In this document: in pieces, positions 1-11,950 of the stretch | Layout: every line of letters begins with the position of its first letter | How positions within the stretch are numbered: position 1 is the first letter of the stretch | Program-made: the position numbers and the translations under genes | Notes under the pieces: model-generated | The model's input: the letters and a program-made list of their open reading frames with translations, nothing else | What the model was told of the DNA's origin: nothing | Database searches by the model: none | IMG/VR virus record: IMGVR_UViG_3300048121_000820 | Coordinates: 1 to 52,603 of that record | Strand: one strand, 5' to 3' | DNA from: a virus | Lineage: Duplodnaviria; Caudoviricetes | Length of the DNA: 52,603 nucleotides

Positions 1-195
1 GCCGACCAAATCGCCGCTAAACTAGCGCAAATCGATCGCTTTGAAAGAACCTACAAACCTAATGCAACAAGTAAATCTTGGCGTAAATGGTGTACCGATT
101 ATGAATACCGGAAACGCGAGTGGCAATTACGTCAGTCCGTAGCGAACAGTATAAAACCAAATACTAACTATTATAAAGAAAACACAATATTATGA
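1..195 (+). CDS. Hypothetical protein, 5'-truncated by window edge
   Basis: Frame 1 is open from base 1 (ADQIAAKLAQ...NTIL) to TGA 193-195, overlapping the next ATG (ATGA). Confidence 0.6.
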   Translation, partial: ADQIAAKLAQIDRFERTYKPNATSKSWRKWCTDYEYRKREWQLRQSVANSIKPNTNYYKENTIL

Positions 196-467
196 GATTA
201 ATTAAAGTAACCAAAGATGGGGCTCTACATTTTAAATTGAGTGATGGACGAATTGGCGCTACATACCCTAGCGGTTATGTAAGAGTATCTACCAAACAAG
301 ATAACTATTACCACAAAAAACCGTTAATGTACCAAATAAATAGACAAAAGAAAGATTGGTACGATCCGGGAAGTGAGTGGGGTTATAATACTTTAAGAGT
401 TTTAATACCTAATCATGCCGATCGAGTAAGAAGATTAATAGATTTTAACGAAGAAAACTGTAAATAA
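192..467 (+). CDS. Hypothetical early protein
   Basis: 91-aa ORF in a tightly packed co-oriented array; A-rich leader. Confidence 0.7.
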   Translation: MRLIKVTKDGALHFKLSDGRIGATYPSGYVRVSTKQDNYYHKKPLMYQINRQKKDWYDPGSEWGYNTLRVLIPNHADRVRRLIDFNEENCK

Positions 468-468
468 T

Positions 469-663
469 ATGAAATTAGATTTAAATAAAGTAGACAATCT
501 GGAATTCGATGGGATCGATTTCGCAGACTATCCGGACTTTGTAGATGCGTTCTTAGTAACCGCAGATTACGACGGAAAAGAAATGACTGAAGAACAAATT
601 GATTACCTTAACGATGAATACAGCGATTGGGTTTATGAGGAAGTGTATAACTCTATATTCTAA
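469..663 (+). CDS. Small, highly acidic hypothetical protein
   Basis: 64-aa, D/E-rich (DGIDFADYPDFVDA). Confidence 0.75.
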   Translation: MKLDLNKVDNLEFDGIDFADYPDFVDAFLVTADYDGKEMTEEQIDYLNDEYSDWVYEEVYNSIF

Positions 664-668
664 ACACT

Positions 669-836
669 ATGTATATAACAATATTAGATTTTAGCAGTGG
701 CCTCGTATCTCGCATAGAGGTGCTAGAGGGCATGAGTACCGAAGGATATGAAGAAGTAATTATTGACCGTGGGTTTAGGTTAAGTAACATCGAGTGGATG
801 TCACACACCGACCCGGAAATTTATGAATATGAGTAA
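669..836 (+). CDS. Hypothetical protein (55 aa, below ORF-track cutoff)
   Basis: Read manually: MYITILDFSSG...EIYEYE*, ATG 669, TAA 834-836; fills the gap exactly. Confidence 0.65.
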   Translation: MYITILDFSSGLVSRIEVLEGMSTEGYEEVIIDRGFRLSNIEWMSHTDPEIYEYE

Positions 837-1029
837 AATGAAACAACTAGACGAAATCGCAGAAGGTGTTGCGGACGTCACAATGGAATTAATGTATGAC
901 AGTGTAGATTGGCAACTGTCGGATTTTGAACAAGACGGCGATGACTACAATGCTATACACAGCGAAGTAATGTTCCGCGCTATCGAAAAAATGTGGTTCG
1001 AAATAAAAAAAGGATATCACGAAAAATGA
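823..1029 (+). CDS. Acidic hypothetical protein
   Basis: 68-aa ORF; the true start may be 829 or 838. Confidence 0.65.
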   Translation: MNMSKMKQLDEIAEGVADVTMELMYDSVDWQLSDFEQDGDDYNAIHSEVMFRAIEKMWFEIKKGYHEK

Positions 1030-1124
1030 AAGAATTTTATGACAACTTATGGTATACTTTTTATACCGGTATATTAGCTTTAGGTATATATATACTTATA
1101 TTGTGGAAAAACAAGAAGTTATAA
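1026..1124 (+). CDS. Small single-TM membrane peptide (32 aa)
   Basis: Read manually: MKEFYDNLWYTFYTGILALGIYILILWKNKKL*; ATGA overlap with the upstream stop; hydrophobic core and basic tail. Confidence 0.5.
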   Translation: MKEFYDNLWYTFYTGILALGIYILILWKNKKL

Positions 1125-1132
1125 GCGCAAAA

Positions 1133-1157
1133 TAAAAACGCACACCTGTAGATAATA
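1133..1157 (+). promoter_or_regulatory. Putative phage early promoter, copy 1 (TAAAAACG-N10-GATAATA)
   Basis: TAAAAACG cacacctgta GATAATA; intergenic; identical boxes and spacing recur four times. Confidence 0.75.
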
Positions 1158-1182
1158 TATATGAACAAAAAAATAAATAACT

Positions 1183-1371
1183 ATGTATTGTAGATGTGGA
1201 AATAAAGTACACCCAATCCGTTTAGATTTGGGATATAAAACGTGTGTGAAGTGTTCAACAACTAAAACATACTCGTATGTCCCGATCATTGAGCATAAAA
1301 CGGGTAATACAATACAAATTGTCAGCCAAGAGGTGAGCGCTTCAGTTCACCGAGCTTGGCGGCGTAAATAG
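1183..1371 (+). CDS. Small C4 zinc-finger protein (DksA/TraR-finger-like)
   Basis: CRCGNKVHPIRLDLGYKTCVKC resembles the CxxCG..I...RL.....CxxC pattern. Confidence 0.55.
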   Translation: MYCRCGNKVHPIRLDLGYKTCVKCSTTKTYSYVPIIEHKTGNTIQIVSQEVSASVHRAWRRK

Positions 1372-1449
1372 CTAGACGAGTAGCTTAATTAGGTTAAAGT
1401 AGGCGAGAACAGACACCTTGTAACTTTAACACATAAGTGAATTGCTAGC
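1371..1449 (+). ncRNA. Structured RNA hairpin unit 1
   Basis: Nested helices GCTAG/CTAGC, GCTTA/TAAGT, GTTAAAGT/ACTTTAAC and AGG/CCT in a non-coding gap. Confidence 0.6.
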
Positions 1450-1516
1450 ATAAGCAGTAGTAAGTATAAGTCAGGGTACACACCGGTAAATGACGTGCAT
1501 CTTATTACTGCTTTAT
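1450..1516 (+). ncRNA. Structured RNA hairpin unit 2
   Basis: 13-bp basal stem AAGCAGTAGTAAG/CTTATTACTGCTT (one G·U); inner GTCA/TGAC and GGT/ACC. Confidence 0.6.
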
Positions 1517-1596
1517 GGGCGTGAAATGGTTAGGTTGAGGTAGGCGTGCACACCTCGTAACTCTCAACAACGCAGGTTCGATTCCTGCCACGTCCA
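1517..1596 (+). ncRNA. tRNA-like RNA resembling an isolated tmRNA tRNA-like domain
   Basis: Acceptor stem GGGCGTG/CACGTCC with G3·U70; discriminator A1596; perfect T arm GCAGG-TTCGATT-CCTGC; no convincing D stem; long helix GTTGAG/CTCAAC replaces the anticodon arm; CCA not encoded (CTA). Confidence 0.7.
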
Positions 1597-1617
1597 CTAA
1601 TTTTAAAACTAAATAAT

Positions 1618-1821
1618 ATGAGTAAAACTAAATTTAACGGATTTGAAAAATGGCTTATCGAACAAGCGGTAACCGAATGGACTAGGCTTGCTGAAAACGA
1701 AGCAATTGAAGCGCAAAATAAAGGTATTAACCTAATATTTGCACCGGGTTATTTTGAAATGGTAAGCAAAGAATTGTTACATAAAGTAAATGGTATGACC
1801 TTAAAAAGATATGCCGATTAA
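1618..1821 (+). CDS. Hypothetical protein
   Basis: 67-aa ORF with A-rich leader (aaactaaataatATG). Confidence 0.7.
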   Translation: MSKTKFNGFEKWLIEQAVTEWTRLAENEAIEAQNKGINLIFAPGYFEMVSKELLHKVNGMTLKRYAD

Positions 1822-1843
1822 AAACGACAGAGTAAAGATAATA
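1819..1843 (+). promoter_or_regulatory. Putative phage early promoter, copy 2
   Basis: TAAAAACG acagagtaaa GATAATA. Confidence 0.75.
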
Positions 1844-1866
1844 TAATAAACTAAAAATAAATAATT

Positions 1867-2118
1867 ATGAGTAGACTAACAATTTATGAAAGGCTAAAGC
1901 CTGAAATCAAAGAAGCATTACATTCACCTTCTAACGACAAATACAAAGCAAGTGTTGATTCTATAGTTGAAGCGCTTTCAAGCACTACATTTTATAGTGA
2001 ATTAAAAATTAGCGACGTTAGCTCGCTATACACGTTCACCCATCTAGAATTCTATAAAATTTCTGCTTGGGATTTCAAATACGGCGAAAACATTTTAATA
2101 ACTAAATGTAATGAGTAG
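1867..2118 (+). CDS. Hypothetical protein
   Basis: 83-aa ORF directly after promoter copy 2. Confidence 0.7.
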   Translation: MSRLTIYERLKPEIKEALHSPSNDKYKASVDSIVEALSSTTFYSELKISDVSSLYTFTHLEFYKISAWDFKYGENILITKCNE

Positions 2119-2323
2119 TCAAGAACTACAAGAACGCGCAAGCAATAAAGCTTTCGCTAAGATCACTATGCTTGATTTCGATATCGACAAATTAAAAAGC
2201 GATATAAAGAATGAACTGTATGGTGGTCTTGATCGCGAGCAAATGAGTTTGCTATACACTGCAACTCTGCGTGAGCGTGAAGTATGGAATCATATCGCTA
2301 CAATAATAGAAACTAATAATTAA
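2111..2323 (+). CDS. Hypothetical protein
   Basis: 70-aa ORF overlapping the upstream stop. Confidence 0.65.
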   Translation: MSSQELQERASNKAFAKITMLDFDIDKLKSDIKNELYGGLDREQMSLLYTATLREREVWNHIATIIETNN

Positions 2324-2334
2324 TATATATACCA

Positions 2335-2691
2335 ATGACTAAAGAACAATTAGAATTAAAAGTAAAAGAGTTAACAGCGGCGTTAGCTCAATTTGAAACC
2401 GATCAACAAGAGCTAAATAAGCAACTTAATCAGGCAAAAGAAGACCTTGAAGACATTAACAAGCCTGTAATAACTAAAGAAATTCGTGAAGCTATGCGCC
2501 AACAGGTTTATGAAGCTGTAAGTAATTATAGCTTTGGCAATGTAGATAACTACGAGTATGACTTTGAAATTAACTATGATAACCGCATAGAGCTAAGCAA
2601 TCTAGAATTTAACTACACTGATGATCTCGAAGAAACTATATGCGACTATGTTGAATCAATATTTAAAGTACAAGATAATGACGAAGACTAA
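2335..2691 (+). CDS. Hypothetical coiled-coil/acidic protein
   Basis: 118 aa; heptad-like N-terminus and acidic C-terminus. Confidence 0.7.
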   Translation: MTKEQLELKVKELTAALAQFETDQQELNKQLNQAKEDLEDINKPVITKEIREAMRQQVYEAVSNYSFGNVDNYEYDFEINYDNRIELSNLEFNYTDDLEETICDYVESIFKVQDNDED

Positions 2692-2944
2692 AGAACAAAA
2701 AATACCTAAATGGTTTAAAGGTGTAATATACGACAAAGGTAGTGAAGTACTAAACGTTTTTAGCGGCGAACGCTATACACTTAACAACGTTGAGTTATCT
2801 ATGTACGATTTTATAATGGGTACTCAGTATGTAATGGAGGTTGCACCTAAAACAGTAACAGAAAAACAAATCAGTGAATTTCATAAAGCGCTTAATTGGT
2901 TTAGATCAAACAACACGGAAGCTTATATGATATTATTAGACTAA
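2678..2944 (+). CDS. Hypothetical protein
   Basis: ORF track gives 2621; ATG 2678 (MTKTKEQK) gives a typical short overlap and is preferred. Confidence 0.7.
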   Translation: MTKTKEQKIPKWFKGVIYDKGSEVLNVFSGERYTLNNVELSMYDFIMGTQYVMEVAPKTVTEKQISEFHKALNWFRSNNTEAYMILLD

Positions 2945-2948
2945 CATT

Positions 2949-3158
2949 ATGGCAAATATGAGTTATTGTCGCTTCGAAAATACGGCAAAAGATATGAGAG
3001 ACTGCATCTATGCTATCGAAGAGCGTGATGTATATGAGTTCAGTAGTTACGAGCTATCTGGATTTAAAGACGTGCTAGAATGTGCACGAGACATTGTAAA
3101 AATGGAAGATGACATTGAACGAATAATTGAATATTATGAATCTACTGACACAAAATAG
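2949..3158 (+). CDS. Hypothetical phage protein (MANMSYCRFENT type)
   Basis: 69-aa ORF whose N-terminal motif I recall from other phage small proteins. Confidence 0.7.
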   Translation: MANMSYCRFENTAKDMRDCIYAIEERDVYEFSSYELSGFKDVLECARDIVKMEDDIERIIEYYESTDTK

Positions 3159-3741
3159 TAAATTAAAAAAAACAAGTAAAGAACTCGGGCTCCGTGTGTT
3201 TAACTTCGGTATACCTGCATATAAATCTGCAAGCGGTAAGTTAACATGCCCTATGGCTGACGCATGCGTTAAATTCTGCTACGCCAAGAAAGGAGCCTAC
3301 ATCTGGTCTAACGTAAAACCCGCGTTTGAAAAGCGTTATGAGCTAACAAAGACAGACAACTTTGTTGAGGCTATGAACGCTGAAATACGTAAGAAGAAAC
3401 CTGACTACGTCAGAGTCCATGATAGCGGGGATTACTACTCACCTAAATATCTAAAAAAGTGGATCGAGATTGCTATACACAATCCGAACGTGAGGTTTTA
3501 CAGTTATACCAATATGATCGATATGTTGTTAAAAGCTTCATTACCAAGCAATTACGACATTATATTTAGCGATTCGGGTAAACAAAAACATTTAATAGAT
3601 GAAAGAAAACACAGACACACCAAAATATTTTCTAGTCATAGCGATCTTATACGCAACGGTTATATGGATGCTTCTAGTATTGACTTAATGGCTACAAAAT
3701 GGTTTAATAATACTAACAAAGTAGGATTAGTATTTCATTAG
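3127..3741 (+). CDS. Gp88-like protein (radical-SAM-like Cys cluster)
   Basis: NSKL...F.IPA...TCPMADACVKFCYA (CX5CX3C) and RVHDSGDY motifs; start may be 3136. Confidence 0.7.
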   Translation: MNIMNLLTQNSKLKKTSKELGLRVFNFGIPAYKSASGKLTCPMADACVKFCYAKKGAYIWSNVKPAFEKRYELTKTDNFVEAMNAEIRKKKPDYVRVHDSGDYYSPKYLKKWIEIAIHNPNVRFYSYTNMIDMLLKASLPSNYDIIFSDSGKQKHLIDERKHRHTKIFSSHSDLIRNGYMDASSIDLMATKWFNNTNKVGLVFH

Positions 3742-3750
3742 CATGCAAAA

Positions 3751-3775
3751 TAAAAACGAACAATAATAGATAATA
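3751..3775 (+). promoter_or_regulatory. Putative phage early promoter, copy 3
   Basis: (GCATGCAAAA)TAAAAACG aacaataata GATAATA. Confidence 0.75.
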
Positions 3776-3792
3776 CTATAAACAATGAAAAT

Positions 3793-4020
3793 ATGAAAAA
3801 CAATCTTGAATCAATAATGGTTGATTCCAGCGCTATATATAGTGCAGAATACAACAACAACGAAAATACTATGCTAGTATACTTTAATAACGATAGTATA
3901 TACAAATACCACGATATACCTCTTTTTTATTGGCGTGGGTTATTCGAATCAGAATCTAAAGGCAAATTTCTCAATAAGTTTATATTTAAAAACTTTAAAA
4001 CTGAGAGAATAGATCTATAA
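3793..4020 (+). CDS. KTSC-domain protein (single-stranded nucleic-acid binding)
   Basis: VDSSAI...YN.....L.VYF....IYKY.DIP......L..SESKGKFLN..I pattern. Confidence 0.8.
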   Translation: MKNNLESIMVDSSAIYSAEYNNNENTMLVYFNNDSIYKYHDIPLFYWRGLFESESKGKFLNKFIFKNFKTERIDL

Positions 4021-4310
4021 TGACGGATAAACAATTAGAAAAGTTAGCTACTCGTGTTGCTGAATTAGTTTTGACCGGTCTTATTGAAAAGCAAAAAGAA
4101 TGGGATCAACAATTCACTACAGACCTGAACGAATTAACACAAGATGGATTCGGTAATGCGAGATTAGTTAATGAGGAAGAGTTAATACTCGCTGAGATAG
4201 CTAGGCTTATGACCCTATTGTCATCTTATGAAGAAAATGAACAATACGAAAAAGCCGCTATAATACACAATAAACTAAAAATACTAGAAGACAAACTTAA
4301 TAAACTTTAA
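4020..4310 (+). CDS. Protein with C-terminal UVR (UvrB/UvrC) helical motif
   Basis: YEENEQYEKAAIIHNKLKIL. Confidence 0.6.
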   Translation: MTDKQLEKLATRVAELVLTGLIEKQKEWDQQFTTDLNELTQDGFGNARLVNEEELILAEIARLMTLLSSYEENEQYEKAAIIHNKLKILEDKLNKL

Positions 4311-4311
4311 T

Positions 4312-4803
4312 ATGAATATCTTTTATTTACACCCGGATCCAGCTAAAGCTGCTGGTTTTTTTTATGAAAAACACAAGGTTAAAATGATCTTAGAGTCAGC
4401 TCAAATGTTATGTACCGCACATCACGTATATAATAATGGCGATAATGTGCCATACAAAAAAGCGCACCTTAATCATCCAAGCACTATATGGGTAAGAGAC
4501 AGTATACACCATTACAATTGGTTGTACGATCACATGCTTGCATTAGGCAAAGAGTATACAGCTAGATACAATAAGCATCACCTTAGTATTGCTAAGTGTC
4601 GTGAAGCTTTAATGTACCCACCATCAGGTATGCCCGATAATGGATTTATCCAACCACCTCAATGTATGCCTGACGAATACAAAGAGCCTAGTAGCTTAAT
4701 AGCTTACTGGAATTATTACGAACAAGAAAAACATAAAGTAAGAAATAAAAATGAGAAGAAAATTATACGTCCATCTAACATCAACGAATTATGCGAATAT
4801 TAA
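4312..4803 (+). CDS. Pyrimidine-dimer DNA glycosylase/DenV-like protein
   Basis: MNIFYL.......HKVKMILESAQML...H.NHPS.IW....Y.WL......EY..RY motifs. Confidence 0.75.
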   Translation: MNIFYLHPDPAKAAGFFYEKHKVKMILESAQMLCTAHHVYNNGDNVPYKKAHLNHPSTIWVRDSIHHYNWLYDHMLALGKEYTARYNKHHLSIAKCREALMYPPSGMPDNGFIQPPQCMPDEYKEPSSLIAYWNYYEQEKHKVRNKNEKKIIRPSNINELCEY

Positions 4804-5012
4804 TACGAAGATACAAAAAGAACAGAAGAAAAGCAAAGCACGTAAGGTTTCTAGAAAATAGAATATCAATCTTGCATAACGAGATAGTAAAAGCGGCTTT
4901 CAAAAGCGAATATAGTTTTAATAAAAACATAACTATTTTTGGCGGCAACATAGAAAATAAAGCAAAGCTTTTAAAAAAGTACAACAGAAGATTAAAGATT
5001 TTAATCTACTAA
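4791..5012 (+). CDS. Basic hypothetical protein
   Basis: 73-aa K/R-rich ORF, co-oriented with neighbours. Confidence 0.5.
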   Translation: MRILIRRYKKNRRKAKHVRFLENRISILHNEIVKAAFKSEYSFNKNITIFGGNIENKAKLLKKYNRRLKILIY

Positions 5013-5051
5013 TACGACGATAGCTAATATATAATTAATAGTAAGAACCTA

Positions 5052-5678
5052 ATGTCACAATACGACCGAAATACCAAATACCTAGATAAGCATCGTATAA
5101 TATATAGGCAAAATCCTACAACCGACACACCAACAGAAACATTTGATTGGGGTTGGTTTTATAGAGAGGGTACGCATCAATGCTATACATTGTTTAATTC
5201 TCGCGCTAAAATAACCACATATAGAAGCCTCAAATGGCATTTGTATGTATTATGGTATCTTAATCCTCAATTGGATCAAGAGGGCTTTAATTCCATTGCT
5301 GAGCATGTATGCAATAAGCAAGCAGGATTTGTGACATTCAAGGTATCAAATCAATTGCTGCAAAGCATGGTATATGATGTTTCACTTATGGATCTTGAAA
5401 GACCACCACCTAATAAATTACGTAAAGTTATATTCAAAGACTTCACAGGTTTAGATATGCGACAAAAGCTATCTATAGTAGGCAAGCTAGTCGGTAGATC
5501 TAAAATATCTGAAAGCGAAATATACGATGCGATGCTACTTATAAATGATAGCCAAATTAAAATAACGGTTGCAAGGCTTGCTGAGGCACTTAAATGTTCA
5601 ACAAGAACTATATATCGTAATATGAGTAACGAACTTAAAAAAGAAAAAGAATTACTTAATAATCAAATAAAAGATTAG
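5052..5678 (+). CDS. DNA-binding protein with C-terminal HTH
   Basis: ITVARLAEALKCSTRTIYRNM is a typical HTH. Confidence 0.7.
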   Translation: MSQYDRNTKYLDKHRIIYRQNPTTDTPTETFDWGWFYREGTHQCYTLFNSRAKITTYRSLKWHLYVLWYLNPQLDQEGFNSIAEHVCNKQAGFVTFKVSNQLLQSMVYDVSLMDLERPPPNKLRKVIFKDFTGLDMRQKLSIVGKLVGRSKISESEIYDAMLLINDSQIKITVARLAEALKCSTRTIYRNMSNELKKEKELLNNQIKD

Positions 5679-5689
5679 AGCATGCGTAA

Positions 5690-5714
5690 TAAAAACGACA
5701 CTATTTAGATAATA
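5690..5714 (+). promoter_or_regulatory. Putative phage early promoter, copy 4 (upstream of sigma gene)
   Basis: (GCATGCGTAA)TAAAAACG acactattta GATAATA, 5 nt before ATG 5720. Confidence 0.75.
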
Positions 5715-5719
5715 TAAAT

Positions 5720-6478
5720 ATGAAAAAATACAATATACAAAACTACATAAGATACAAAGAGGATTTAAAAGTTTCTATATGTAATCTTGAGGGTAAGTTT
5801 TACGATGAATATACCAGGGATGAGTTGATTGTAAGGTTCATGCCGCTTGTGGAAAACTTGGCGCGTAAATTTTCAACTACACAGCAAGCCTCAGGTGTCC
5901 TTAGTATTAATGATCTTATACAAGAAGGTAATAAAGGATTGATTTTAGCCGTAGACAAATTAGATTGGGCAATGATAGATGAGTCGCCAGATGTTGAAAA
6001 AACATTAAAAAGTTTTTTTAGCAAAAGAATTAAGGGAGCTATAAGACGCGCAATAGATATTAACAGAGGGGATATACGTATACCAGAACATAAACTAAAT
6101 GAAATACGTAAAAACCCTAAAGATCAAAAAATTGTTGCGATGTTTTTTAATTCTGTGTTTTCTAGTATAGATGAAAACTTTAATAATGAAGAAGAAGACC
6201 CTATATATCAAATAGCGGATAAATCAGAACCATATAATATACAAATACTTAATATTTATTTGAAAGGTTTAATGAAAAAATATTTAACACCAATTGAATA
6301 TGAAGTGTTGAGGCTATCATATGGTTTAGACTGCGAAAAACATTCTGCAAACTATATAGCAAACAAGTTAAATATAAATGTTAGCACCGCAAACGTGCGT
6401 GTTTCACAAATAAAAAGAGAAGCTATTGATAGACTTATCGCTAATACTGACGCAAATCAAGTGATTGATTATCTTTAA
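5720..6478 (+). CDS. Phage sigma-70 family RNA polymerase sigma factor
   Basis: Region 2 (PLVENLARKF...DLIQEGNKGLILAVDK...IKGAIRRAI...IRIPEH) and region 4 (EYEVLRLSYGL...IANKLNI...RVSQIKREAI). Confidence 0.85.
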   Translation: MKKYNIQNYIRYKEDLKVSICNLEGKFYDEYTRDELIVRFMPLVENLARKFSTTQQASGVLSINDLIQEGNKGLILAVDKLDWAMIDESPDVEKTLKSFFSKRIKGAIRRAIDINRGDIRIPEHKLNEIRKNPKDQKIVAMFFNSVFSSIDENFNNEEEDPIYQIADKSEPYNIQILNIYLKGLMKKYLTPIEYEVLRLSYGLDCEKHSANYIANKLNINVSTANVRVSQIKREAIDRLIANTDANQVIDYL

Positions 6479-6489
6479 TTTATAAACAA

Positions 6490-6504
6490 AATGTGTAATT
6501 ATAT
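6490..6504 (+). promoter_or_regulatory. Candidate middle/late promoter (AATGTGTAATWATAT)
   Basis: 14/15 match to the minus-strand element at 28142-28156; both lie in gaps just before gene blocks. Confidence 0.4.
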
Positions 6505-6528
6505 TAATATACCAAAACCACAAACCAT

Positions 6529-7077
6529 ATGACTTTAAATGAAAAACTGGCAACTATCCAGACAAAGTTTAAATCGAAAAAAAGTAGATTTAATTCATTC
6601 GGCAAATATAACTTCAGATCAGCCGAAGACATCCTAGAAGCAACAAAACCCTATCTATTAGAATTAGGAGTAACAGTAACGATTATCGAACAGCTAATCC
6701 AAAGCGAGCCGTTTCCTATATTGGAATCAAAAGCTATTATTGCTGACGGCGATGGTGCTATACACGCAACATCTATAGTTGGTGTTGACTTAACTCAAAA
6801 AGGTATGCAAATGCCTCAAAAGTTTGGTAGTGCCTCTAGTTATGGCAAAAAGTATGCTCTCGGTAATTTATTTTTAATTGACGATACAGCAGATAGCGAT
6901 GCTACAAATTCACACGGAAAAGCTTCCGCGGCTAAAAACAAAGAAACCTTAACCTCTAAAAAAGATCCAGCTTACAGTAAAGCGATCGACTATGTAAAAG
7001 CAGGTGGTAAAATTGAAGCTATAAAAGCTAAATATTCTTTATCTAAAGAGATAGAGGCAGAATTAAAAACACTATAA
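6529..7077 (+). CDS. ERF-family single-strand annealing protein
   Basis: KSRFNSFGKYNFRSAEDILEA.KP and Q.FGSASSYGKKYAL..LF.IDD..DSD motifs. Confidence 0.8.
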   Translation: MTLNEKLATIQTKFKSKKSRFNSFGKYNFRSAEDILEATKPYLLELGVTVTIIEQLIQSEPFPILESKAIIADGDGAIHATSIVGVDLTQKGMQMPQKFGSASSYGKKYALGNLFLIDDTADSDATNSHGKASAAKNKETLTSKKDPAYSKAIDYVKAGGKIEAIKAKYSLSKEIEAELKTL

Positions 7078-7809
7078 ATGGACGATAAAGTAGCTATTGA
7101 AAAATTAAGAAAAGATGAAAACTATTATGGTAAGTTTGGAAAAAAATACTTATCTAACAGTGACATATCTACCTTAATGACAAACCCTTTAGCGCTAGGT
7201 ACACCTATGAAACCATCAGCTGCATTTTTAGTTGGTGGTTACTTTCACACTGCTATTCTTGAACCAAACAAGTTAAAAAAGTATAAGATAGTAGAAAGTT
7301 CAACTAGGAACACTAAAGCGTATAAAGAGATTTCAGGCGGAGAGCTATGTCTTCTACAAAAAGAGGTTGATCAAATTGATTTGATGACAGATAAGTTAAT
7401 GGAAAACGACATCTGCAGAGGATTAATAAGAGGATCTAAAGTAGATTATGAACAGCCTGCTATTACAGAATTAGAAGGATTGAAATGGAAAGGAAAAGCA
7501 GATATTGTAAATCACGAAGAAGGTTTAATAATTGATTTAAAAACCACAGGAGATATTACAAGATTCAGAAGCTCAGCTTACCGTTACAATTACGATTCTC
7601 AAGCTTATATTTATAGTAAACTATTTGGTTATGAAATGTTATTCATAGTGATGGATAAAACTACACATCAAATAGGAATATTTGATTGCTCACCTGATTT
7701 TTATCAACGTGGGGCAGACAAAGTTCAACAAGCGGCAGAGCAATACAAGTTGTTCTACCAAAACCCGGATTTCGATCCAAACAATTATTTTATTAACAAA
7801 ACCCTTTAA
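7078..7809 (+). CDS. PD-(D/E)XK exonuclease (RecE/ExoVIII-like)
   Basis: LSNSDI...G.YFH..ILEP; KGKAD...IIDLKTT...Y.YD.QAY.Y; adjacent to ERF. Confidence 0.8.
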   Translation: MDDKVAIEKLRKDENYYGKFGKKYLSNSDISTLMTNPLALGTPMKPSAAFLVGGYFHTAILEPNKLKKYKIVESSTRNTKAYKEISGGELCLLQKEVDQIDLMTDKLMENDICRGLIRGSKVDYEQPAITELEGLKWKGKADIVNHEEGLIIDLKTTGDITRFRSSAYRYNYDSQAYIYSKLFGYEMLFIVMDKTTHQIGIFDCSPDFYQRGADKVQQAAEQYKLFYQNPDFDPNNYFINKTL

Positions 7810-7811
7810 AA

Positions 7812-7991
7812 ATGGCAAGAACCAGAAAAAACCAAACAAAAGTATGCAGTGTAACCGGACTAGAAACTAGTGTTAATAATTTTTACACTAATCAAAACCA
7901 TGTAAAAGCCGTAGACAACTTAAGGCGGAATAGCGGCGCATCAAAAGAACAGATGCAAAGAATGTTTAATCAGATAAATCAATATGTATAA
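7812..7991 (+). CDS. Hypothetical protein (59 aa, below ORF-track cutoff)
   Basis: Read manually: MARTRKNQTKVCSVTG...NQYV*; TAATG coupling with the next gene. Confidence 0.65.
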   Translation: MARTRKNQTKVCSVTGLETSVNNFYTNQNHVKAVDNLRRNSGASKEQMQRMFNQINQYV

Positions 7992-8299
7992 TGGCAAGTA
8001 TTATTAAAGCGAGTATCAATCTGAACGAGATACCAAAAGACAAAATCATTATTGGCAAGAAAGGTAAGTATTTACCTGTGACTATAACTATCAATGATGA
8101 AGTAGATCAATTTGGAAATCAAGGTCCGATTGTAGTAGCTCAAACAAAGGAAGAGCGAGAAGCTAAGCAAGGTAAAACTTATTTAGGAAACGTTCAAGTA
8201 GTATGGACTAACGGCGAGAATGTTGCCGCTGCTCCAAGACAAGACCAACCAGCTCAGGCAGCTCCGGCTCCTGCGCCTGCAGATGATCTACCGTTTTAA
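7991..8299 (+). CDS. Single-stranded DNA-binding protein
   Basis: Small beta-rich core, P/A linker and C-terminal DDLPF; located in the replication module. Confidence 0.75.
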   Translation: MASIIKASINLNEIPKDKIIIGKKGKYLPVTITINDEVDQFGNQGPIVVAQTKEEREAKQGKTYLGNVQVVWTNGENVAAAPRQDQPAQAAPAPAPADDLPF

Positions 8300-8350
8300 T
8301 GCACTACAAAAACAACGCATAAACGAGGATTAACAATTAAATTAAATTAA

Positions 8351-10060
8351 ATGCAGACATTAGAGATCAATGGATTTGTTATTGACGAGTTCAATATACA
8401 TAAACTTGAAGAGGGGAAAAAGCAGGGTATATGCCCTATGTGTTCTCAAGATAGAAAACCCAAGAATCAAAAGGCTAAGTGTGCGTCTTACGATTGGGAA
8501 CGGGGTCTCGGTACTTGTCATAATTGTAATACATCATTTCAACTACATACGTATCAGCGCAAAGGTAAAGCTGAGAAGGTTTATATTAAACCAGAGCCCG
8601 TTGCTATACACAGGCCAGGTACAAAAGTAGAAGAGTGGTTTAAAACTCGTGGTATATCTCAGGAAACCCTTGCTGATCTAAAAATCAGTGAGGGCCCTGA
8701 ATATATGCCTCAGACCGGTAAAACCGAGAATGTAATAAAGTTCAATTATTTTATGGGCGGTGAATTAACTAATGTTAAATACCGAGATGGAAGAAAGAAC
8801 TTTAAATTATATAAGGGTGCTGAAAAAGTATTCTATAATATAGACAGCATAGTAGGCTATGAGTATTGCGTTATAGTTGAAGGCGAAATGGACGTGTTAG
8901 CTTTACACGAAGCTGGTATTGCAAATGCAATATCCGTTCCCAATGGAGCAACACTTAATACTAACAATTTAGATTATTTAGACAATTGCATAGATTATTT
9001 CGAAGACAAAGAAAAAGTTATTTTAGCAGTAGATTCAGACGAAGCTGGTCAAGCATTACAAGCTGAATTAATACGTAGATTAGGTTCAGAAGTATGCTAT
9101 ATAGCTACATTTGACGATTGTAAAGATGCTAACGAATATTTATTAAAGTATGGAAAAGAAAAACTATCAGAGCGTATTTCAAGATCAAAGCCAGTACCAC
9201 TGGAGAATGTTACAACGTTCAGGGATATCGAAGATGAAGTCACGGACTTTGTTCGTAATGGTTTCAAGCCTGGCTTTCAAATTGGTTTGGAAAACTTTGA
9301 TAATATATTTTCGACGTACACTGGTCAGTTTATTACTGTCACTGGCATACCCTCTTCGGGCAAGTCGGATTTTGTGGATCAAATGGTTGTCGGATATAAT
9401 GCGAACTATGGTTGGAAAACAGCTTTCGCTTCTCCAGAAAACGTACCAACATATTTACATGCTCATAAGTTAATGCGTAAGACTTGGCAAGGCATGCCCA
9501 CAAGAGAAGATATTGGAGGGGATCGTTGGAATCAAATAGCGGACCATTGCAATACTAACTACTTTCACATTGACATGGAACGTTACACTTTAGAATCAGT
9601 GCTTAAGAAAGGAGCTGAGCTAGTTAAACGTAAAGGTATTAAATGTTTAGTTATAGATCCATTTAATAAAGTAAGGGATGTTGACTGTAAGACTGAAGAT
9701 GTTAATAGGTATACTATGGAGTACTTAAGCAAAATAGAAATGTTTGCTAAAAAGTATGATGTATTAGTATTTATAGTAGCTCATCCAACTAAAATGTATA
9801 AAGGCAGCGATGGCAAAATTGATGAACCCACAATGTATAACATTAAAGGTGGTGGTGAATGGTATGATGCTAGTTATCACGGTATATTAGTTCATAGAGA
9901 TTATGATGCTAAAACCGTTAAGGCTAAGGTGTTGAAAATAAAGTTTCAAAACCTCGGCGAGAACGGCGCTGAAGCTCATTTCAAATGGGAACCAAAGTCA
10001 GGTTGTTTTATTCCGCACGAACAAGTTAATCTTGCTGGTGAGAAAATGCCATGGGAGTAA
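8351..10060 (+). CDS. Primase-helicase (T7 gp4/Twinkle-like)
   Basis: Zn ribbon (CPMC...CHNC), TOPRIM (VEGEMD, DSDEAG, KDANE) and SF4 helicase (GIPSSGKS, LVIDPF, VAHPTK). Confidence 0.92.
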   Translation: MQTLEINGFVIDEFNIHKLEEGKKQGICPMCSQDRKPKNQKAKCASYDWERGLGTCHNCNTSFQLHTYQRKGKAEKVYIKPEPVAIHRPGTKVEEWFKTRGISQETLADLKISEGPEYMPQTGKTENVIKFNYFMGGELTNVKYRDGRKNFKLYKGAEKVFYNIDSIVGYEYCVIVEGEMDVLALHEAGIANAISVPNGATLNTNNLDYLDNCIDYFEDKEKVILAVDSDEAGQALQAELIRRLGSEVCYIATFDDCKDANEYLLKYGKEKLSERISRSKPVPLENVTTFRDIEDEVTDFVRNGFKPGFQIGLENFDNIFSTYTGQFITVTGIPSSGKSDFVDQMVVGYNANYGWKTAFASPENVPTYLHAHKLMRKTWQGMPTREDIGGDRWNQIADHCNTNYFHIDMERYTLESVLKKGAELVKRKGIKCLVIDPFNKVRDVDCKTEDVNRYTMEYLSKIEMFAKKYDVLVFIVAHPTKMYKGSDGKIDEPTMYNIKGGGEWYDASYHGILVHRDYDAKTVKAKVLKIKFQNLGENGAEAHFKWEPKSGCFIPHEQVNLAGEKMPWE

Positions 10061-10336
10061 ATGCCTAGTATATATGGTAAACGATCCAAGCCAATGCCAA
10101 AATATGTTGCGAGCGAGGAGGAAACAAAATGGGTTTTATATTGTATTAAAAATAATATAAGAATATCCCCGTGGGGCATACAAGGTAACTCAGATAATTG
10201 GCACATAGCCATTAGCTTGGGACCTTATCAAAAATGGGAAAAACCAAATATATCACCAAGCAAATATTGTAGAAATACAATTTGGCCTGAATATTATAAA
10301 ATGTGTAAATACTATTATGACAAATATAGAAAATGA
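10061..10336 (+). CDS. Hypothetical protein
   Basis: 91-aa ORF between primase-helicase and ThyA. Confidence 0.65.
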   Translation: MPSIYGKRSKPMPKYVASEEETKWVLYCIKNNIRISPWGIQGNSDNWHIAISLGPYQKWEKPNISPSKYCRNTIWPEYYKMCKYYYDKYRK

Positions 10337-11141
10337 ATACAAAGAACTTATATCAGAAATACTCGACAGCGGATTGGATAAGTCGGATAGAACAGGGACT
10401 GGGACGAAGTCTGTCTTCGGGAGAACGATTAGACACGATATGTCACTTGGCTTCCCTATACTTACAGGAAAGAAAATAAGCTTCAATGCAGCAAGAACAG
10501 AATTGCTTTGGATATTACAGGGTAGAACTGATCTTAGGTATTTAGAAGATAATGGTGTTAAGTATTGGAGACCAGATTATAAACGGTCAGGCAGAACAGA
10601 TGAAACATTAGGCCCTGTGTATGGAAAACAGTGGCGTAATTTTAACGGCGTAGATCAGCTTTATAATCTTGCAGAGGATATTAACACTAATCCAGACTCT
10701 AGACGTCTTATAGTTAGCGCATGGGCCCCGCACGAGATGAATGATATGGTTTTGCCTCCGTGCCATTATGCTTTTCAAGTATATATTAATAATGGTGTAA
10801 TGGATTTGATGTGGCAACAAAGATCCGCTGATGTGTTTTTAGGTTTACCTTACGATATTACTATGTATGGTTTACTATTAGAATTGTTAGCTAAAGGTGC
10901 TGATTTAAAACCAGGCAAGCTTATTGGTCAACTTGGTGATTGTCATTTATATAATAATCACTTAGACCAAGCAAAAATATATTTAGATAGATCAAAGAGG
11001 GTGTTGCCTAAGATACAATTAGAAAGAGGAATTAGCGCCAACTTATTAGGAGGTGTAAATATACCTGAAGCTTTTGAAATTAAATTATTAAAATACAATC
11101 CTTATCCCGCTATTAAAGCGGAGCTGAGCGTTGGTAAATAA
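10317..11141 (+). CDS. thyA: Thymidylate synthase
   Basis: DRTGTGT, LGPVYGKQWR, SRRLIVSAW, LPPCH, QRSADVFLGLP, GDCHLY.NH. Confidence 0.95.
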   Translation: MTNIENEYKELISEILDSGLDKSDRTGTGTKSVFGRTIRHDMSLGFPILTGKKISFNAARTELLWILQGRTDLRYLEDNGVKYWRPDYKRSGRTDETLGPVYGKQWRNFNGVDQLYNLAEDINTNPDSRRLIVSAWAPHEMNDMVLPPCHYAFQVYINNGVMDLMWQQRSADVFLGLPYDITMYGLLLELLAKGADLKPGKLIGQLGDCHLYNNHLDQAKIYLDRSKRVLPKIQLERGISANLLGGVNIPEAFEIKLLKYNPYPAIKAELSVGK

Positions 11142-11149
11142 ATAAAAAT

Positions 11150-11950
11150 ATGTACAACATTTATCACATTCCTGGTAAAAAAATTGGAGTTACACGTAAT
11201 CTTAATAAGAGAGTTACGGAGCAACAAGGTTATGCGCCAGGAGAATACGAAGTTTTATTTACAAGTGATGATATTGATTTAATATCTAACAAAGAAATAG
11301 AACTTCAACAGTCTTATGGCTATAAAAAAGACCGGACATTATATAAAAATTTATTCAAATCAAATATGAAAATAAATCCAACAGAACAAACAAGTACGTT
11401 TCCCGTACCGTTAAATAAACTAAGAGGCAACCTTTACGATAACTTAGGAATAGAATGGGAAACCCCAGAGTTTAAGTTTAAATTACAAAAAGAACATATA
11501 CCCTGGATAATGCAAAATGCTAAAACTTCGATGTATAATAACGATCGAAGCTATATATATAACAAGGCTTTCTATGAGGCCTTTTTTAACCCTGTACACG
11601 ATCCTAACTCAATACCAGATAGATTTGATCTTATAAGATTATGGGCTAAAGATAAAGGTATATACGATAAAGGTAATTCTCATACGCAATATGTTAAGCT
11701 TATGGAAGAAGCTGGAGAGCTAGCGGCTGCTTTACTAAATAAAGACGCGTACGAAATTAAAGACGCTATTGGGGATATGGTTGTAGTGCTTACAAATTTA
11801 GCAGCTTTAGAAGGTATGCAAATTGAAAATTGTATTGATTCAGCATACAATGAAATAGCTAATAGAATTGGTGTAATGCACAACGGAACATTTGTAAAAA
11901 CCGGAATAACTGCTGACCAAGCTACTGATTTATTAAAAGAAATGTTATGA
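11150..11950 (+). CDS. Fusion: GIY-YIG-like N-terminus plus MazG-like NTP pyrophosphatase C-terminus
   Basis: N-terminus YNIYH...KIGVTRNLNKR...E; C-terminus KLMEEAGELA...IKDAIGDMVVVL..LA...AYNEI..R.G....GTFVK. Confidence 0.7.
   Translation: MYNIYHIPGKKIGVTRNLNKRVTEQQGYAPGEYEVLFTSDDIDLISNKEIELQQSYGYKKDRTLYKNLFKSNMKINPTEQTSTFPVPLNKLRGNLYDNLGIEWETPEFKFKLQKEHIPWIMQNAKTSMYNNDRSYIYNKAFYEAFFNPVHDPNSIPDRFDLIRLWAKDKGIYDKGNSHTQYVKLMEEAGELAAALLNKDAYEIKDAIGDMVVVLTNLAALEGMQIENCIDSAYNEIANRIGVMHNGTFVKTGITADQATDLLKEML

What the first reader, a model, noticed from the sequence alone, without database searches (positions are those of the whole stretch)
1371..1596. Array of three abutting RNA units sharing a covarying apical motif
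Seen in sequence: three structured units with no spacer (1371-1449, 1450-1516, 1517-1596). Units 1 and 3 share TTAG-GTTRARGT-AGGCG-[loop]-CACCT-YGTA-ACT..AAC (1389-1430 vs 1530-1568), with compensatory changes (GTTAAA/TTTAAC versus GTTGAG/CTCAAC) and a variable loop (AGAACAGA versus TGCA). Unit 2 carries a looser version, GTCA-GGGTACACACC-GGTAA-A-TGAC. The same head module therefore sits on three different scaffolds: two long duplexes and one tRNA-like body. Inference: a polycistronic ncRNA from promoter copy 1, possibly cut by RNase III/RNase P, presenting several copies of a protein-binding motif (sponge or decoy). I do not recognise it as a described family.
Basis: partly seen in the sequence, partly recalled or inferred. 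Interest (0 to 1): 0.88.

Follow-up and report, generated by a model that had tools for sequence, protein, structure and literature searches.

The report
Phage small-RNA operon with swappable heads
A marine phage encodes three adjoining structured RNAs, one a tag-less copy of the alanine-accepting end of the bacterial ribosome-rescue RNA, and related phages shuffle the tips of these RNAs among several carrier RNAs like interchangeable parts.

Summary
The three abutting structured units are real (whole-stretch fold z -4.25).

- **Unit 3 (1517-1596)** is a tmRNA-type tRNA-like domain with no tag-coding part. It has G3:U70, A73 and a T arm. Rfam tmRNA scores 36.1 bits, below the cut-off of 47; homologues in relatives reach 53-65 bits. 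This is the known "TLD-only" kind (mycobacteriophage DS6A).
- **Unit 1 (1371-1449)** belongs to an undescribed scaffold family with a conserved AGUA/GAA internal loop. It is single-copy in each genome examined.
- **Unit 2 (1450-1516)** is a hairpin carrying a different conserved module. It is not a loose copy of the unit 1/3 head.

Across relatives the scaffolds stay constant while the apical "heads" are hypervariable. I found 138 distinct heads in 64 clusters. Seven clusters sit on two or three unrelated scaffolds.

In metatranscriptome libraries, single contigs join the upstream ORF end and the units.

Function is inferred: stable tRNA-scaffolded decoy RNAs, with the TLD engaging AlaRS, SmpB and EF-Tu. 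No CRISPR-repeat or other host-RNA counterpart was found.

This scan had already noted the mini-tmRNA with a swappable arm on other DNA. The sharing of heads with non-tmRNA scaffolds is what this report adds.

The parts
1151..1160 (+). Phage promoter-like motif GATAATATAT, 32 nt upstream of the ATG at 1183. The next copy, at 1837, lies in front of the following gene block.
   Evidence: GATAATATAW occurs 5 times in the window against 0.95 expected (0 of 100 shuffles reach 5). The copies at 1151, 1837 and 5708 lie 12-32 nt upstream of ORF starts. One search finds no sigma-70-type promoter on the + strand in 1000-1750. Promoter function is inferred.
1183..1371 (+). 62-aa CxxC...CxxC zinc-ribbon ORF. 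Its TAG stop overlaps the first base of unit 1. It is the conserved left neighbour of the RNA cluster.
   Evidence: ORF; 168 of 183 candidate stretches in viral contigs encode a relative; the 80 kept are 76-100% identical. No Pfam or PHROG family.
1371..1449 (+). Unit 1, a scaffold RNA. The constant frame is 1371-1392 plus 1431-1449, with a conserved AGUA (1379-1382) / GAA (1439-1441) internal loop and an AAUUAG/ACA loop. The exchangeable head is 1393-1430.
   Evidence: fold -23.5 kcal/mol, z -3.87; 26 distinct scaffolds, 93.2% of 338 cells paired, 5 of 13 pairs changed on both sides; model R1 scores 74.1 bits here and finds 34 units in 81 sources, all on the + strand; inserts range from 8 to 140 nt.
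1393..1430 (+). Head copy 1: GTTAAAG-T-AGGCG-AGAACAGA-CACCT-TGTA-ACTTTAAC.
   Evidence: An identical head sits on the unit 1 scaffold in 3 viral contigs and 4 metagenome contigs.
1450..1516 (+). Unit 2, a 13-bp hairpin (1452-1513) that presents a separate conserved module (core 1466-1499).
   Evidence: -22.1 kcal/mol, z -4.23; the core is found in 14 of 81 sequences, in two different stem contexts; the same core is also carried as the head of a unit 1 scaffold in L104 and L129.
1517..1596 (+). Unit 3, a TLD-only mini-tmRNA. Acceptor stem 1517-1523 / 1589-1595 with G3:U70. T arm 1572-1588. Discriminator A at 1596, followed by CTA (no encoded CCA). Head at 1534-1568, in the place of the tmRNA body.
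   Evidence: RF00023 36.1 bits (cut-off 47), E 7.9e-13; only the model ends are matched, with 36 nt where the model has 326; 44 homologues, 100% of 528 cells paired, 8 of 12 pairs changed on both sides, G3:U70 in 42 of 44. ARAGORN calls no tRNA or tmRNA.
1534..1568 (+). Head copy 2: GTTGAGG-T-AGGCG-TGCA-CACCT-CGTA-ACTCTCAAC.
   Evidence: An identical head sits on the TLD in 3 metagenome contigs with other upstream neighbours.
1618..1821 (+). Downstream 67-aa ORF, on the same strand, before the next promoter-like motif.
   Evidence: No family found.

Best explanation
Positions 1371-1596 are the small-RNA segment of an early phage operon. The operon reads promoter-like motif, zinc-ribbon ORF, three structured RNAs, small ORF. 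The primary transcript is cut into three stable RNAs, presumably by the host tRNA-processing enzymes: RNase P at the 5' end of unit 3, and RNase Z or exonucleases plus the CCA-adding enzyme at its 3' end.

Unit 3 is a tag-less tmRNA mimic. It keeps the alanine acceptor stem and the T arm but has a 35-nt hairpin where tmRNA carries its pseudoknots and tag reading frame. It should be charged by AlaRS and bound by SmpB and EF-Tu, yet it cannot template a tag. The most likely effect is competition with host tmRNA, by titrating SmpB or occupying stalled ribosomes. That is what a DS6A-like TLD-only molecule is reported to do.

Unit 1 is a second carrier, not tRNA-shaped, whose invariant AGUA/GAA loop looks like a protein-docking platform. 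Unit 2 is a plain hairpin carrier.

All three carriers display apical modules drawn from a clade-wide library. The window carries one module twice (units 1 and 3) and another once (unit 2). I read the heads as the specific binding ends (decoys or sponges for host RNA-binding, RNA-decay or defence proteins). I read the carriers as supplying processing, nuclease resistance and possibly delivery.

Shown: the structures, scaffold covariation, head exchange, single-copy status, and presence as joined contigs in RNA libraries. Inferred: processing sites, charging, SmpB binding, and any decoy function.
For: - Identity of unit 3: one search gives the tmRNA model ends at 36.1 bits. In one search, 13 of 16 relatives' loci have a tmRNA hit in the same slot, 4 of them above the cut-off (64.7, 64.7, 60.6, 53.1 bits). 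In one search, 100% of 528 cells are paired, 8 of 12 pairs have compensatory changes (0 of 500 shuffles as high), G3:U70 is kept in 42 of 44, and 4:69 is C-G, G-C or A-U.
- Known behaviour of the kind: PMC4131195 (passages) says the DS6A sequence is little more than the TLD and that a similar molecule strongly inhibits tmRNA, perhaps by titrating SmpB. PMC11915505 (passages) says the same.
- Unit 1 scaffold: one search gives 93.2% paired against 13-37% in the slid controls, and a covariation score of 0.141 against 0.061 (0 of 500). One search shows the invariant columns covering the AGUA/GAA loop. One search finds 34 units in 81 sources. One search finds one locus per genome in 5 of 5 relatives that are 95-100% complete.
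- The slot is a tRNA cluster: ARAGORN finds true tRNAs there in 20 of 81 sequences.
- Head exchange: one search finds 138 distinct heads in 64 clusters; 7 clusters are on 2 or more scaffold types and 2 are on all three, with 88-100% identity over 22-51 nt between scaffolds.
- Modules are confined to the array in this genome.
- RNA libraries: contigs with 0 differences bridge 1321-1595 (X15) and 1272-1554 (X17). Loose ends at 1392-1394 run from the unit 1 scaffold into four other head types.
- A hint only: those contigs have mean word depth 56-746, against 3-15 for contigs on the flanks in the same runs.
Against: - No binding, charging or processing was tested.
- The window's TLD is below the Rfam tmRNA cut-off, and ARAGORN does not call it.
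- The RNA evidence is from assembled contigs only. It gives no strand and no true ends, and DNA carry-over cannot be excluded. The tool states that contig depth cannot rank parts of a gene, and conserved segments pool reads from many related phages.
- A natural unit 1 with only an 8-nt GGGAAACC cap exists (L068, L138, L170), so a head is not needed for the scaffold to exist.
- The window's own head type is rare: 3 viral and 7 metagenome contigs, each version invariant. This gives almost no comparative signal for that head.
- No SmpB, Ro60 or other obvious RNA-binding partner gene was found among the 34 window ORFs scanned. The record is only 82% complete.
Confidence: 0.6

Rival explanations
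1. Only the carriers matter. The heads are tolerated filler (expansion segments) that merely cap a helix, and their turnover is neutral drift plus recombination inside a hot, repetitive RNA cluster.
For: - Head length ranges from 8 to 140 nt on the same scaffold, including a minimal GGGAAACC cap.
- Heads nest inside one another's loops (L040, L074 and L076 series).
- 24 of the 48 clusters are singletons.
Against: The same head sequence is kept at 88-100% identity over 22-51 nt on unrelated scaffolds that have different closing contexts. Each version of the window head is invariant across different genome contexts. Both point to selection on head sequence, not only on a closed helix.
Confidence: 0.2
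2. The heads imitate a host RNA. One candidate is CRISPR repeats (RNA anti-CRISPRs). The window's unit 3 head and L077's head are about 35 nt and run GTTG...CAAC, which I recall as typical of type VI-B repeats of Bacteroidota. Other candidates are targets of host nucleases.
For: Only shape, length and end motifs, plus a recalled resemblance. There is precedent that phages use t(m)RNA-derived RNAs against CRISPR accessory nucleases (PMC11662646, passages read).
Against: - The head core pattern was found in 0 of 401 sampled genomes of the class of a Bacteroidetes MAG.
Of these, 73 are unrelated contexts and 7 are phage scaffolds.
- These were exact-match searches on a sample, so the test is weak.
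Confidence: 0.07
3. The shared NGUAA element is a threonine anticodon loop (UGU in unit 1, CGU in unit 3, GGU in unit 2). The units would then be anticodon-arm mimics of tRNA-Thr (decoys for ThrRS or an anticodon nuclease), or odd decoding tRNAs.
For: Read directly: CU-UGU-AA, CU-CGU-AA and C-GGU-AA in the three units, and AGU in the unit 2 variant of L083.
Against: - The element lies in a 3' bulge, not in a 7-nt loop closed by a 5-bp stem.
- L169 has GCAA in its place.
- The true phage tRNA-Thr(UGU) arm of L083 is unrelated in sequence.
- ARAGORN and the Rfam tRNA model do not call any unit.
- Most heads in relatives have no such element.
Confidence: 0.05
4. These are DNA-level features (nested palindromic mini-elements, or a replication or packaging signal) and not functional RNAs.
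For: The nested, palindromic and highly variable inserts look superficially like stacked insertions.
Against: - Strand-specific tRNA features: a T loop, and G3:U70 with 4:69 covariation.
- G-U pairs in the scaffolds, which would not pair on the other strand.
- Better fold z-scores on the + strand.
- The locus is single-copy and the modules are absent elsewhere in the genome.
- The stretch is present in 6 RNA libraries from 6 studies.
Confidence: 0.04

Closest known systems
TLD-only (CDS-less) tmRNA of mycobacteriophage DS6A (tmRNA Website tmID 11587; PMC4131195 and PMC11915505, passages read)
   Same: It is phage-encoded. It keeps the alanine acceptor stem and T arm of tmRNA and has no tag reading frame or pseudoknots. 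A similar molecule is reported to inhibit host tmRNA, perhaps by titrating SmpB.
   Different: Here the TLD belongs to a large clade-wide family (54 of 81 sequences examined). It lies in an operon with other scaffold RNAs. Its inner arm is one of many exchangeable modules that also occur on carriers unrelated to tmRNA. I did not see the DS6A sequence itself.
CDS-less tmRNAs of organelles (about 65-bp plastid forms and mitochondrial forms; PMC11915505 passage)
   Same: They are natural tmRNAs reduced to the tRNA-like domain.
   Different: They are organellar genes retained alongside SmpB for rescue. They are not viral, not in an RNA array, and no exchangeable arm is reported.
Bacterial and phage YrlA-type Y RNAs (PMC4201824, passages read)
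   Same: They are modular non-coding RNAs that combine a protein-binding module with a tRNA-like module recognised by tRNA enzymes (RNase P, CCA addition). They are also found in phages.
   Different: YrlA is defined by a Ro60 neighbour and a GGUCCGA-like Ro-binding strand. No window ORF scanned hit a Ro60 (TROVE) family, and unit 1 reads AGACGAG there. No Rfam family other than tmRNA (plus two weak chance hits) matched the region.
Stable small RNAs inside phage tRNA clusters (T4 species 1 and 2 RNAs; T5 RNA1). These are recalled or taken from an earlier scan note and were not checked here.
   Same: They are non-decoding structured RNAs co-transcribed and co-processed with phage tRNAs, with unknown function.
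   Different: No sequence comparison was made. No exchangeable-module behaviour is known to me for them.
Engineered 'tRNA scaffold' expression of RNA inserts (recalled, not checked)
   Same: A foreign structured RNA replaces the anticodon arm of a tRNA frame, so that the cell processes and stabilises it.
   Different: That is a laboratory method. Here the arrangement is natural, uses a tmRNA-type frame and two other frames, and is diversified across a phage clade.

Membership tests
tmRNA (Rfam RF00023), full-length | Score at or above the curated gathering cut-off (47 bits) | tested here: not met
   36.1 bits at 1517-1599. Nothing at the gathering threshold. Homologues in the same slot of 4 of 16 relatives reach 53.1-64.7 bits.
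tmRNA (Rfam RF00023), full-length | Alanine acceptor stem with G3:U70, and a T arm | tested here: met
   12 of 12 pairs formed. G3:U70 in 42 of 44 homologues. T loop TTCGATT. Discriminator A.
tmRNA (Rfam RF00023), full-length | mRNA-like domain: resume codon, tag reading frame with a stop, and pseudoknots | tested here: not met
   Only 36 nt lie where the model has 326 positions. They fold as one hairpin. ARAGORN finds no tmRNA.
TLD-only / CDS-less tmRNA (DS6A type) | A tmRNA-type tRNA-like domain is present and the tag-coding domain is absent | tested here: met
   as above. The definition is taken from PMC4131195 and PMC11915505 passages.
TLD-only / CDS-less tmRNA (DS6A type) | Binds SmpB and interferes with trans-translation | not testable with these tools
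   Needs SmpB binding and tagging assays.
Canonical tRNA | Cloverleaf with a D arm and an anticodon arm (5-bp stem, 7-nt loop) | tested here: not met
   ARAGORN finds 0 genes in the window. In one search the reported match for unit 3 among the related tRNA/tmRNA models was tmRNA (only the best of overlapping matches is kept), and no match was reported for units 1 or 2. True tRNAs in relatives score 62-71 bits.
YrlA / Y RNA | Ro60 (TROVE) gene nearby and a GGUCCGA-like Ro-binding strand | tested here: not met
   None of the 34 ORFs scanned hits a Ro60 (TROVE) family. Unit 1 reads GCUAGACGAGUAGC. No Rfam hit at E up to 10. The motif is taken from PMC4201824.
RNA anti-CRISPR (solitary repeat mimic) | Close sequence match to the CRISPR repeat of a host | tested here: inconclusive
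   Core pattern found in 0 of 401 sampled genomes. No multi-match locus among the 80 metagenome loci listed. These were exact-match, sampled searches, and the host is unknown.
Unit 1 scaffold family (undescribed; model R1) | Two helices flanking an invariant AGUA/GAA loop, an AAUUAG/ACA loop, and a variable apical insert | tested here: met
   74.1 bits, E 1.5e-12. Pair counts. The window sequence was part of the alignment the model was built from, so it matches by construction. Five units that were not in the alignment were also found (L032, L037, L038, L043, L064).

The most novel reading that the evidence does not exclude
This phage clade runs a combinatorial RNA display system. A shared library of at least 64 structured RNA modules is shuffled among at least three unrelated, co-transcribed carrier RNAs: a tmRNA-type tRNA-like domain, an AGUA/GAA-loop scaffold and a T-arm scaffold. 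Each phage thus fields its own set of stable RNA decoys against host RNA-binding defence, RNA-decay or ribosome-rescue proteins. This would be an RNA-level analogue of cassette shuffling in protein counter-defence loci.
Probability: 0.3. Interest if true: 0.85.

Novelty: new variant of a known kind. Interest (0 to 1): 0.68.

Why it matters
Tag-less tmRNA mimics were known from a single mycobacteriophage and a few organelles. Here the kind appears in a large family of marine phages (168 relatives of the neighbouring gene in viral contigs). It is embedded in an RNA operon whose members exchange apical domains across unrelated frames.

If the heads are binding ends, this is a natural counterpart of the laboratory tRNA-scaffold trick. 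It would also be a ready-made catalogue of compact RNA modules under selection, each a candidate ligand for a host protein.

It would give a handle on two open questions: why phages tamper with ribosome rescue, and what the long-known but unexplained stable RNAs of phage tRNA clusters do.

The unit 1 scaffold and the unit 2 module match no family in Rfam 15 and deserve a family description whatever their function turns out to be.

Tried and rejected
- **Phage GenBank collection:** no match to 1150-1850 (distant mode) or to 1-20000 (near mode).
- **Earlier notes on this genome:** none.
- **Permuted-tmRNA hit** at 1570-1661 (20 bits, E 0.063): rejected. It runs into the ORF at 1618, has mismatched acceptor pairs, and the standard acceptor pairing is perfect.
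- **Plastid-ycf2 hit** (18.4 bits, - strand): chance.
- **Host tmRNA with the same 3' end:** the 25-nt exact scan of genome contigs gave only 6 stretches, all in MAG contigs (two 'Bacteroidetes bacterium' MAGs and four small contigs of one 'Aliivibrio' MAG). These are most likely binned phage DNA, so neither a host nor a donor tmRNA was identified.
- **Head core pattern:** 0 of 2 MAGs and 0 of 401 genomes of that class.
- **Unit 1 model R1:** 0 of 101 genomes of that class. The tool notes that an empty answer without a positive control shows nothing.
- **Relaxed head scan of viral contigs:** 10 stretches, of which 3 are real and 7 are chance matches in unrelated, GC-rich or coding-like DNA.
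- **Metagenome scan:** 73 of the 80 listed loci are unrelated contexts.
- **Threonine-anticodon reading:** rejected (see rivals).
- **Comparison with a true phage tRNA-Thr:** no similarity.
- **Sigma-70 promoter and intrinsic terminator scan of 1000-1750:** one promoter-like site, on the - strand only, and no terminator; fewer than in shuffles.
- **Pfam and PHROGs for the two flanking small ORFs:** nothing.
- **MAFFT alignment of the four heads (A3):** not structure-aware, so I did not run pair counts on it.
- **RNA contigs:** in X16 and X18 the bins 1533-1573 have no cover, and downstream of 1596 only low-depth contigs were laid (the longest, in X15 and X18, carry 38-41 differences). I draw no conclusion from parts without cover. 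Only one contig (X15) stops at 1595, so the 3' end is not established.
- **Literature:** three full-text searches returned nothing on this RNA cluster or on head exchange. Supplements were not consulted.
Full report
**Setting.** The window is a whole IMG/VR virus record of 52.6 kb, estimated 82% complete, with about 35% G+C. It carries early and replication genes on the + strand: an ERF recombinase, a sigma-factor-like protein, a primase-helicase, thymidylate synthase and ribonucleotide reductase. Large structural genes lie on the - strand. It matches nothing in the GenBank phage collection. The flagged stretch lies between a 62-aa CxxC zinc-ribbon ORF (1183-1371) and a 67-aa ORF (1618-1821), all on the + strand.

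**The observation.**
- Positions 1371-1600 fold into three separate domains. MFE is -76.3 kcal/mol against -56.7 +/- 4.6 for 200 shuffles (z -4.25, none as good).
- Each unit folds the same way alone: z -3.87, -4.23 and -2.16 on the + strand, and less well on the - strand.
- The core shared by units 1 and 3 (GTAGGCG, a 4-8 nt loop, CACCTYGTAAC) occurs twice in the window and never in 100 shuffles.
- The two closing stems differ at two base pairs, both compensated.

**Unit 3.** ARAGORN finds no tRNA or tmRNA in the window, and no Rfam family reaches its gathering score. A permissive Rfam scan of 1100-1800 places the two ends of the tmRNA model on 1517-1599 at 36.1 bits (cut-off 47; E 7.9e-13). 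The 5' acceptor strand with the D-loop analogue matches, and so does the T arm with the 3' acceptor strand. Only 36 nt lie where the model has 326 positions. Read directly, the acceptor stem has G3:U70 and discriminator A, which is the alanine identity set of tmRNA and tRNA-Ala (established knowledge).

Unit 3 is therefore a tmRNA-type tRNA-like domain (TLD) without the mRNA-like domain. That kind is in print. Hudson, Lau and Williams list 'Mycobacterium phage DS6A (TLD only)'. They state that a similar molecule strongly inhibits tmRNA, perhaps by titrating SmpB (PMC4131195, passages). A 2025 database paper repeats this and adds CDS-less plastid forms (PMC11915505, passages).

**Relatives.** The zinc-ribbon ORF has 168 relatives in viral contigs, and 80 loci were kept. 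The slot behind it is a small-RNA and tRNA cluster. ARAGORN finds ordinary tRNAs (Met, Gln, Thr, Arg, Ser) in 20 of the 81 sequences examined, and no tmRNA.
- A TLD of the window's type is present in 54 of the 81.
- In an Rfam scan of 16 loci, 13 have a tmRNA hit in this slot, and 4 exceed the cut-off (64.7, 64.7, 60.6, 53.1 bits).
- On an alignment of 44 distinct TLDs, all 528 acceptor and T-stem cells pair. Eight of 12 pairs carry changes on both sides (0 of 500 shuffles as high). The covariation score is 0.324 against 0.079, and the slid controls pair at 38-56%.
- G3:U70 is kept in 42 of 44, while its neighbour 4:69 is C-G, G-C or A-U.
- All TLDs and all true tRNAs there are followed by CTA, or occasionally another triplet, and none has an encoded CCA.

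**Unit 1.** Unit 1 is not a one-off duplex. Its two ends form a constant frame found in 29 of 81 sequences by a tolerant pattern and in 34 units by covariance model R1, all on the + strand. The DNA between the ends ranges from 8 to 140 nt.
- On 26 distinct scaffolds, 93.2% of 338 cells pair, against 13-37% when the partner is slid.
- Five of 13 pairs change on both sides (13 of 500 shuffles as high), in 12 cells (0 of 500). The covariation score is 0.141 against 0.061 (0 of 500).
- The invariant columns cover a 3x3 internal loop with AGUA on one strand and GAA on the other. From memory, I recognise this as the consensus of the sarcin-ricin / loop E motif, a common protein-docking element. That label was not tested here.
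- The 'pair' 8:73 is G-U in 13 and unpaired in 12 of the 26, so it is probably part of the loop.
- The family is single-copy. There is one locus per genome in 5 of 5 relatives that are 95-100% complete, counting once a locus duplicated in a terminal repeat, and one in the window.
- It hits no Rfam family. It was not found in 101 sampled genomes of the class of a Bacteroidetes MAG (a weak test).
- An exact 18-mer of the scaffold occurs in 70 viral contigs.

**Unit 2.** Its apex is a separate conserved module (AAGTCAGGG, 10-12 nt, AATGACGTGCA), present in 14 of 81 sequences. It appears on the window's long stem (5 sequences). It also appears inside a larger RNA that occupies the same middle position in other phages (9 sequences), and as the head of a unit 1 scaffold in L104 and L129. 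Unit 2 therefore does not carry a diverged copy of that head. It carries another member of the head library.

**The heads.**
- From 212 scaffold instances I extracted 138 distinct head sequences: 59 on unit 1 scaffolds, 49 on TLDs, and 30 on a third, T-arm-bearing scaffold that the window lacks.
- They form 64 clusters at 85% identity or more over at least 16 nt.
- Seven clusters occur on two or more scaffold types and two on all three, with 88-100% identity over 22-51 nt between scaffolds. The window's own pair falls just below that threshold and would be an eighth.
- Heads also nest inside one another's loops.
- The window's head type is rare. The unit 1 version is found unchanged in 3 viral and 4 metagenome contigs. 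The unit 3 version is found unchanged in 3 metagenome contigs with other upstream neighbours.
- Two diverged relatives (L145, L169) keep the outer stem, a small inner hairpin with a different sequence, and a 4-nt 3' bulge reading CGUA or CGCA.
- In this genome the library modules occur only inside the array.

**Expression.** Six metatranscriptomic runs from six studies hold 43-66% of the sampled words of 1000-2200. Only assembled contigs could be laid.
- In X15, a 275-nt contig with no differences covers 1321-1595: the ORF end, then units 1, 2 and 3, up to the last acceptor base.
- In X17, a 283-nt contig covers 1272-1554.
- Loose ends at 1392-1394 continue from the unit 1 scaffold into four other head types known from the relatives. 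Loose ends at 1466 and 1499 show the unit 2 module on a unit 1-type scaffold.
- These contigs have mean word depths of 56-746, while contigs on the flanks in the same runs have 3-15. The tool warns that contig depth cannot rank parts of a gene, that related phages pool, and that DNA may be present. I take this as a hint only.
- There is no sigma-70-type promoter on the + strand and no intrinsic terminator in 1000-1750.
- A phage motif, GATAATATAW, occurs 5 times in the window against 0.95 expected. Copies at 1151 and 1837 bracket the ORF-RNA-ORF block. An earlier scan note describes a clade-wide early promoter in such phages.

**Mechanism.**
- Shown: three conserved, structured, single-copy RNA genes in a tRNA-cluster slot, one of them a TLD-only tmRNA; exchange of apical modules between carriers; joined forms in RNA libraries.
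- Inferred: the operon transcript is cut by tRNA-processing enzymes. Unit 3 is alanylated and bound by SmpB and EF-Tu, and it competes with host tmRNA, as reported for the DS6A-like molecule. The AGUA/GAA scaffold docks a protein. The heads are the specific binding ends, with the carriers giving stability and processing.
- I put about 0.85 on the anatomy, about 0.4 on interference with trans-translation, and about 0.3 on the display-library reading.
- Precedent that phages deploy t(m)RNA-derived RNAs against host nucleases exists (AcrIIIA1; PMC11662646, passages).

**Rivals.**
- Neutral filler heads (0.2): favoured by the 8-nt minimal cap, disfavoured by cross-scaffold sequence conservation.
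- Mimicry of CRISPR repeats or another host RNA (0.07): no counterpart in 401 sampled genomes and no array among 80 metagenome loci, but the searches were exact-match and sampled.
- A threonine anticodon mimic (0.05): NGU in all three units, but it sits in a bulge and is GCA in L169.
- DNA-level elements (0.04): contradicted by strand-specific tRNA features, G-U pairs, single-copy status and RNA libraries.

**Comparison and novelty.** Unit 3 is a new member of the known TLD-only kind. It fails membership of full-length tmRNA on score and on the missing mRNA-like domain. Units 1 and 2 and the heads match nothing in Rfam 15, and three literature searches returned nothing on them. YrlA-type Y RNAs work similarly, as a protein-binding module plus a tRNA-like module (PMC4201824). 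The defining Ro60 neighbour and Ro-binding strand are absent.

Earlier notes of this scan (e1-6071471, e1-5895389) had already described the phage mini-tmRNA with a swappable arm on other DNA. This report adds three things. The same modules are shared with carriers unrelated to tmRNA. Unit 1 is a covarying scaffold family with a conserved internal loop. The array appears as joined contigs in RNA libraries.

Overall I rate this a new variant of a known kind, with a bolder reading (a combinatorial RNA display library) that the data do not exclude.

Noticed in passing
L031:1823-1908, L021:1771-1864, L032:1973-2057 and others (absent from the window): A third carrier family is present in 21 of 81 sequences. 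It reads AACTAGGTCAGG-[variable head]-GGCTACCGACGGGTATGAGGTTCGAATCCTCACTAGTTAC. It has a perfect T arm and a 6-7 bp acceptor-like stem that covaries (AACTAG/CTAGTT versus AACCAA/TTGGTT in L066). Neither ARAGORN nor Rfam calls it. Its GGUC is faintly reminiscent of the Ro-binding strand of Y RNAs.
   Followed up: partly
L005-L084, 3' ends of all tRNA-like genes: True tRNAs and TLDs of this clade are nearly always followed by CTA after the discriminator, never by an encoded CCA. This may be a clade-specific 3'-processing context.
   Followed up: no
window 1389-1393 and 1530-1534; 1428-1434 and 1566-1571: Both the unit 1 scaffold and the TLD meet their heads at the same junction letters (TTAG|G before the head, AAC or ACA after it), in the window and across relatives. 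This could be a shared structural joint, or microhomology that mediates head exchange.
   Followed up: no
L018:1858-1982, L021:1986-2111, L053:1936-2060: Some TLDs carry an arm of about 80 nt that contains an Ala/Ser-rich open frame with no in-frame stop. ARAGORN does not call a tmRNA there. It is probably non-coding but was not examined closely.
   Followed up: no
L145, L007, L008, L022, L039, L058, L068, L083 (between unit 1 and the TLD): In many relatives the middle position is held by a larger RNA of about 200 nt, closed by a GAGAGG...CCTCTC-type stem. One arm of it is the unit 2 module. Small hairpin units also recur (for example L002:528-575 and L003's last hairpin).
   Followed up: partly
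window 17179-25839 (-) and 30038-35389 (-): There is a giant 2886-aa ORF with no Pfam family and only a weak PHROG polynucleotide-kinase hit (E 6e-05). A 1783-aa ORF has a sub-threshold crAss-type muzzle C-terminal domain hit (23.4 bits against a cut-off of 27). This suggests a podovirus of a crAss-like or related lineage.
   Followed up: no
L085-L090: The exact 3' end of the phage TLD occurs in contigs of MAGs labelled 'Bacteroidetes bacterium' (one a 56-kb contig) and 'Aliivibrio sp.' (four small contigs). These are most likely phage DNA binned into MAGs. The Bacteroidetes label is the only host hint obtained, and it is weak.
   Followed up: partly
window 1183-1371: The N-terminus of the zinc-ribbon protein reads CxxCG..(x)..R...CxxC. 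From memory this resembles TraR/DksA-type C4 fingers, but no Pfam or PHROG hit supports that. Its stop codon overlaps the first base of unit 1 in most relatives.
   Followed up: partly
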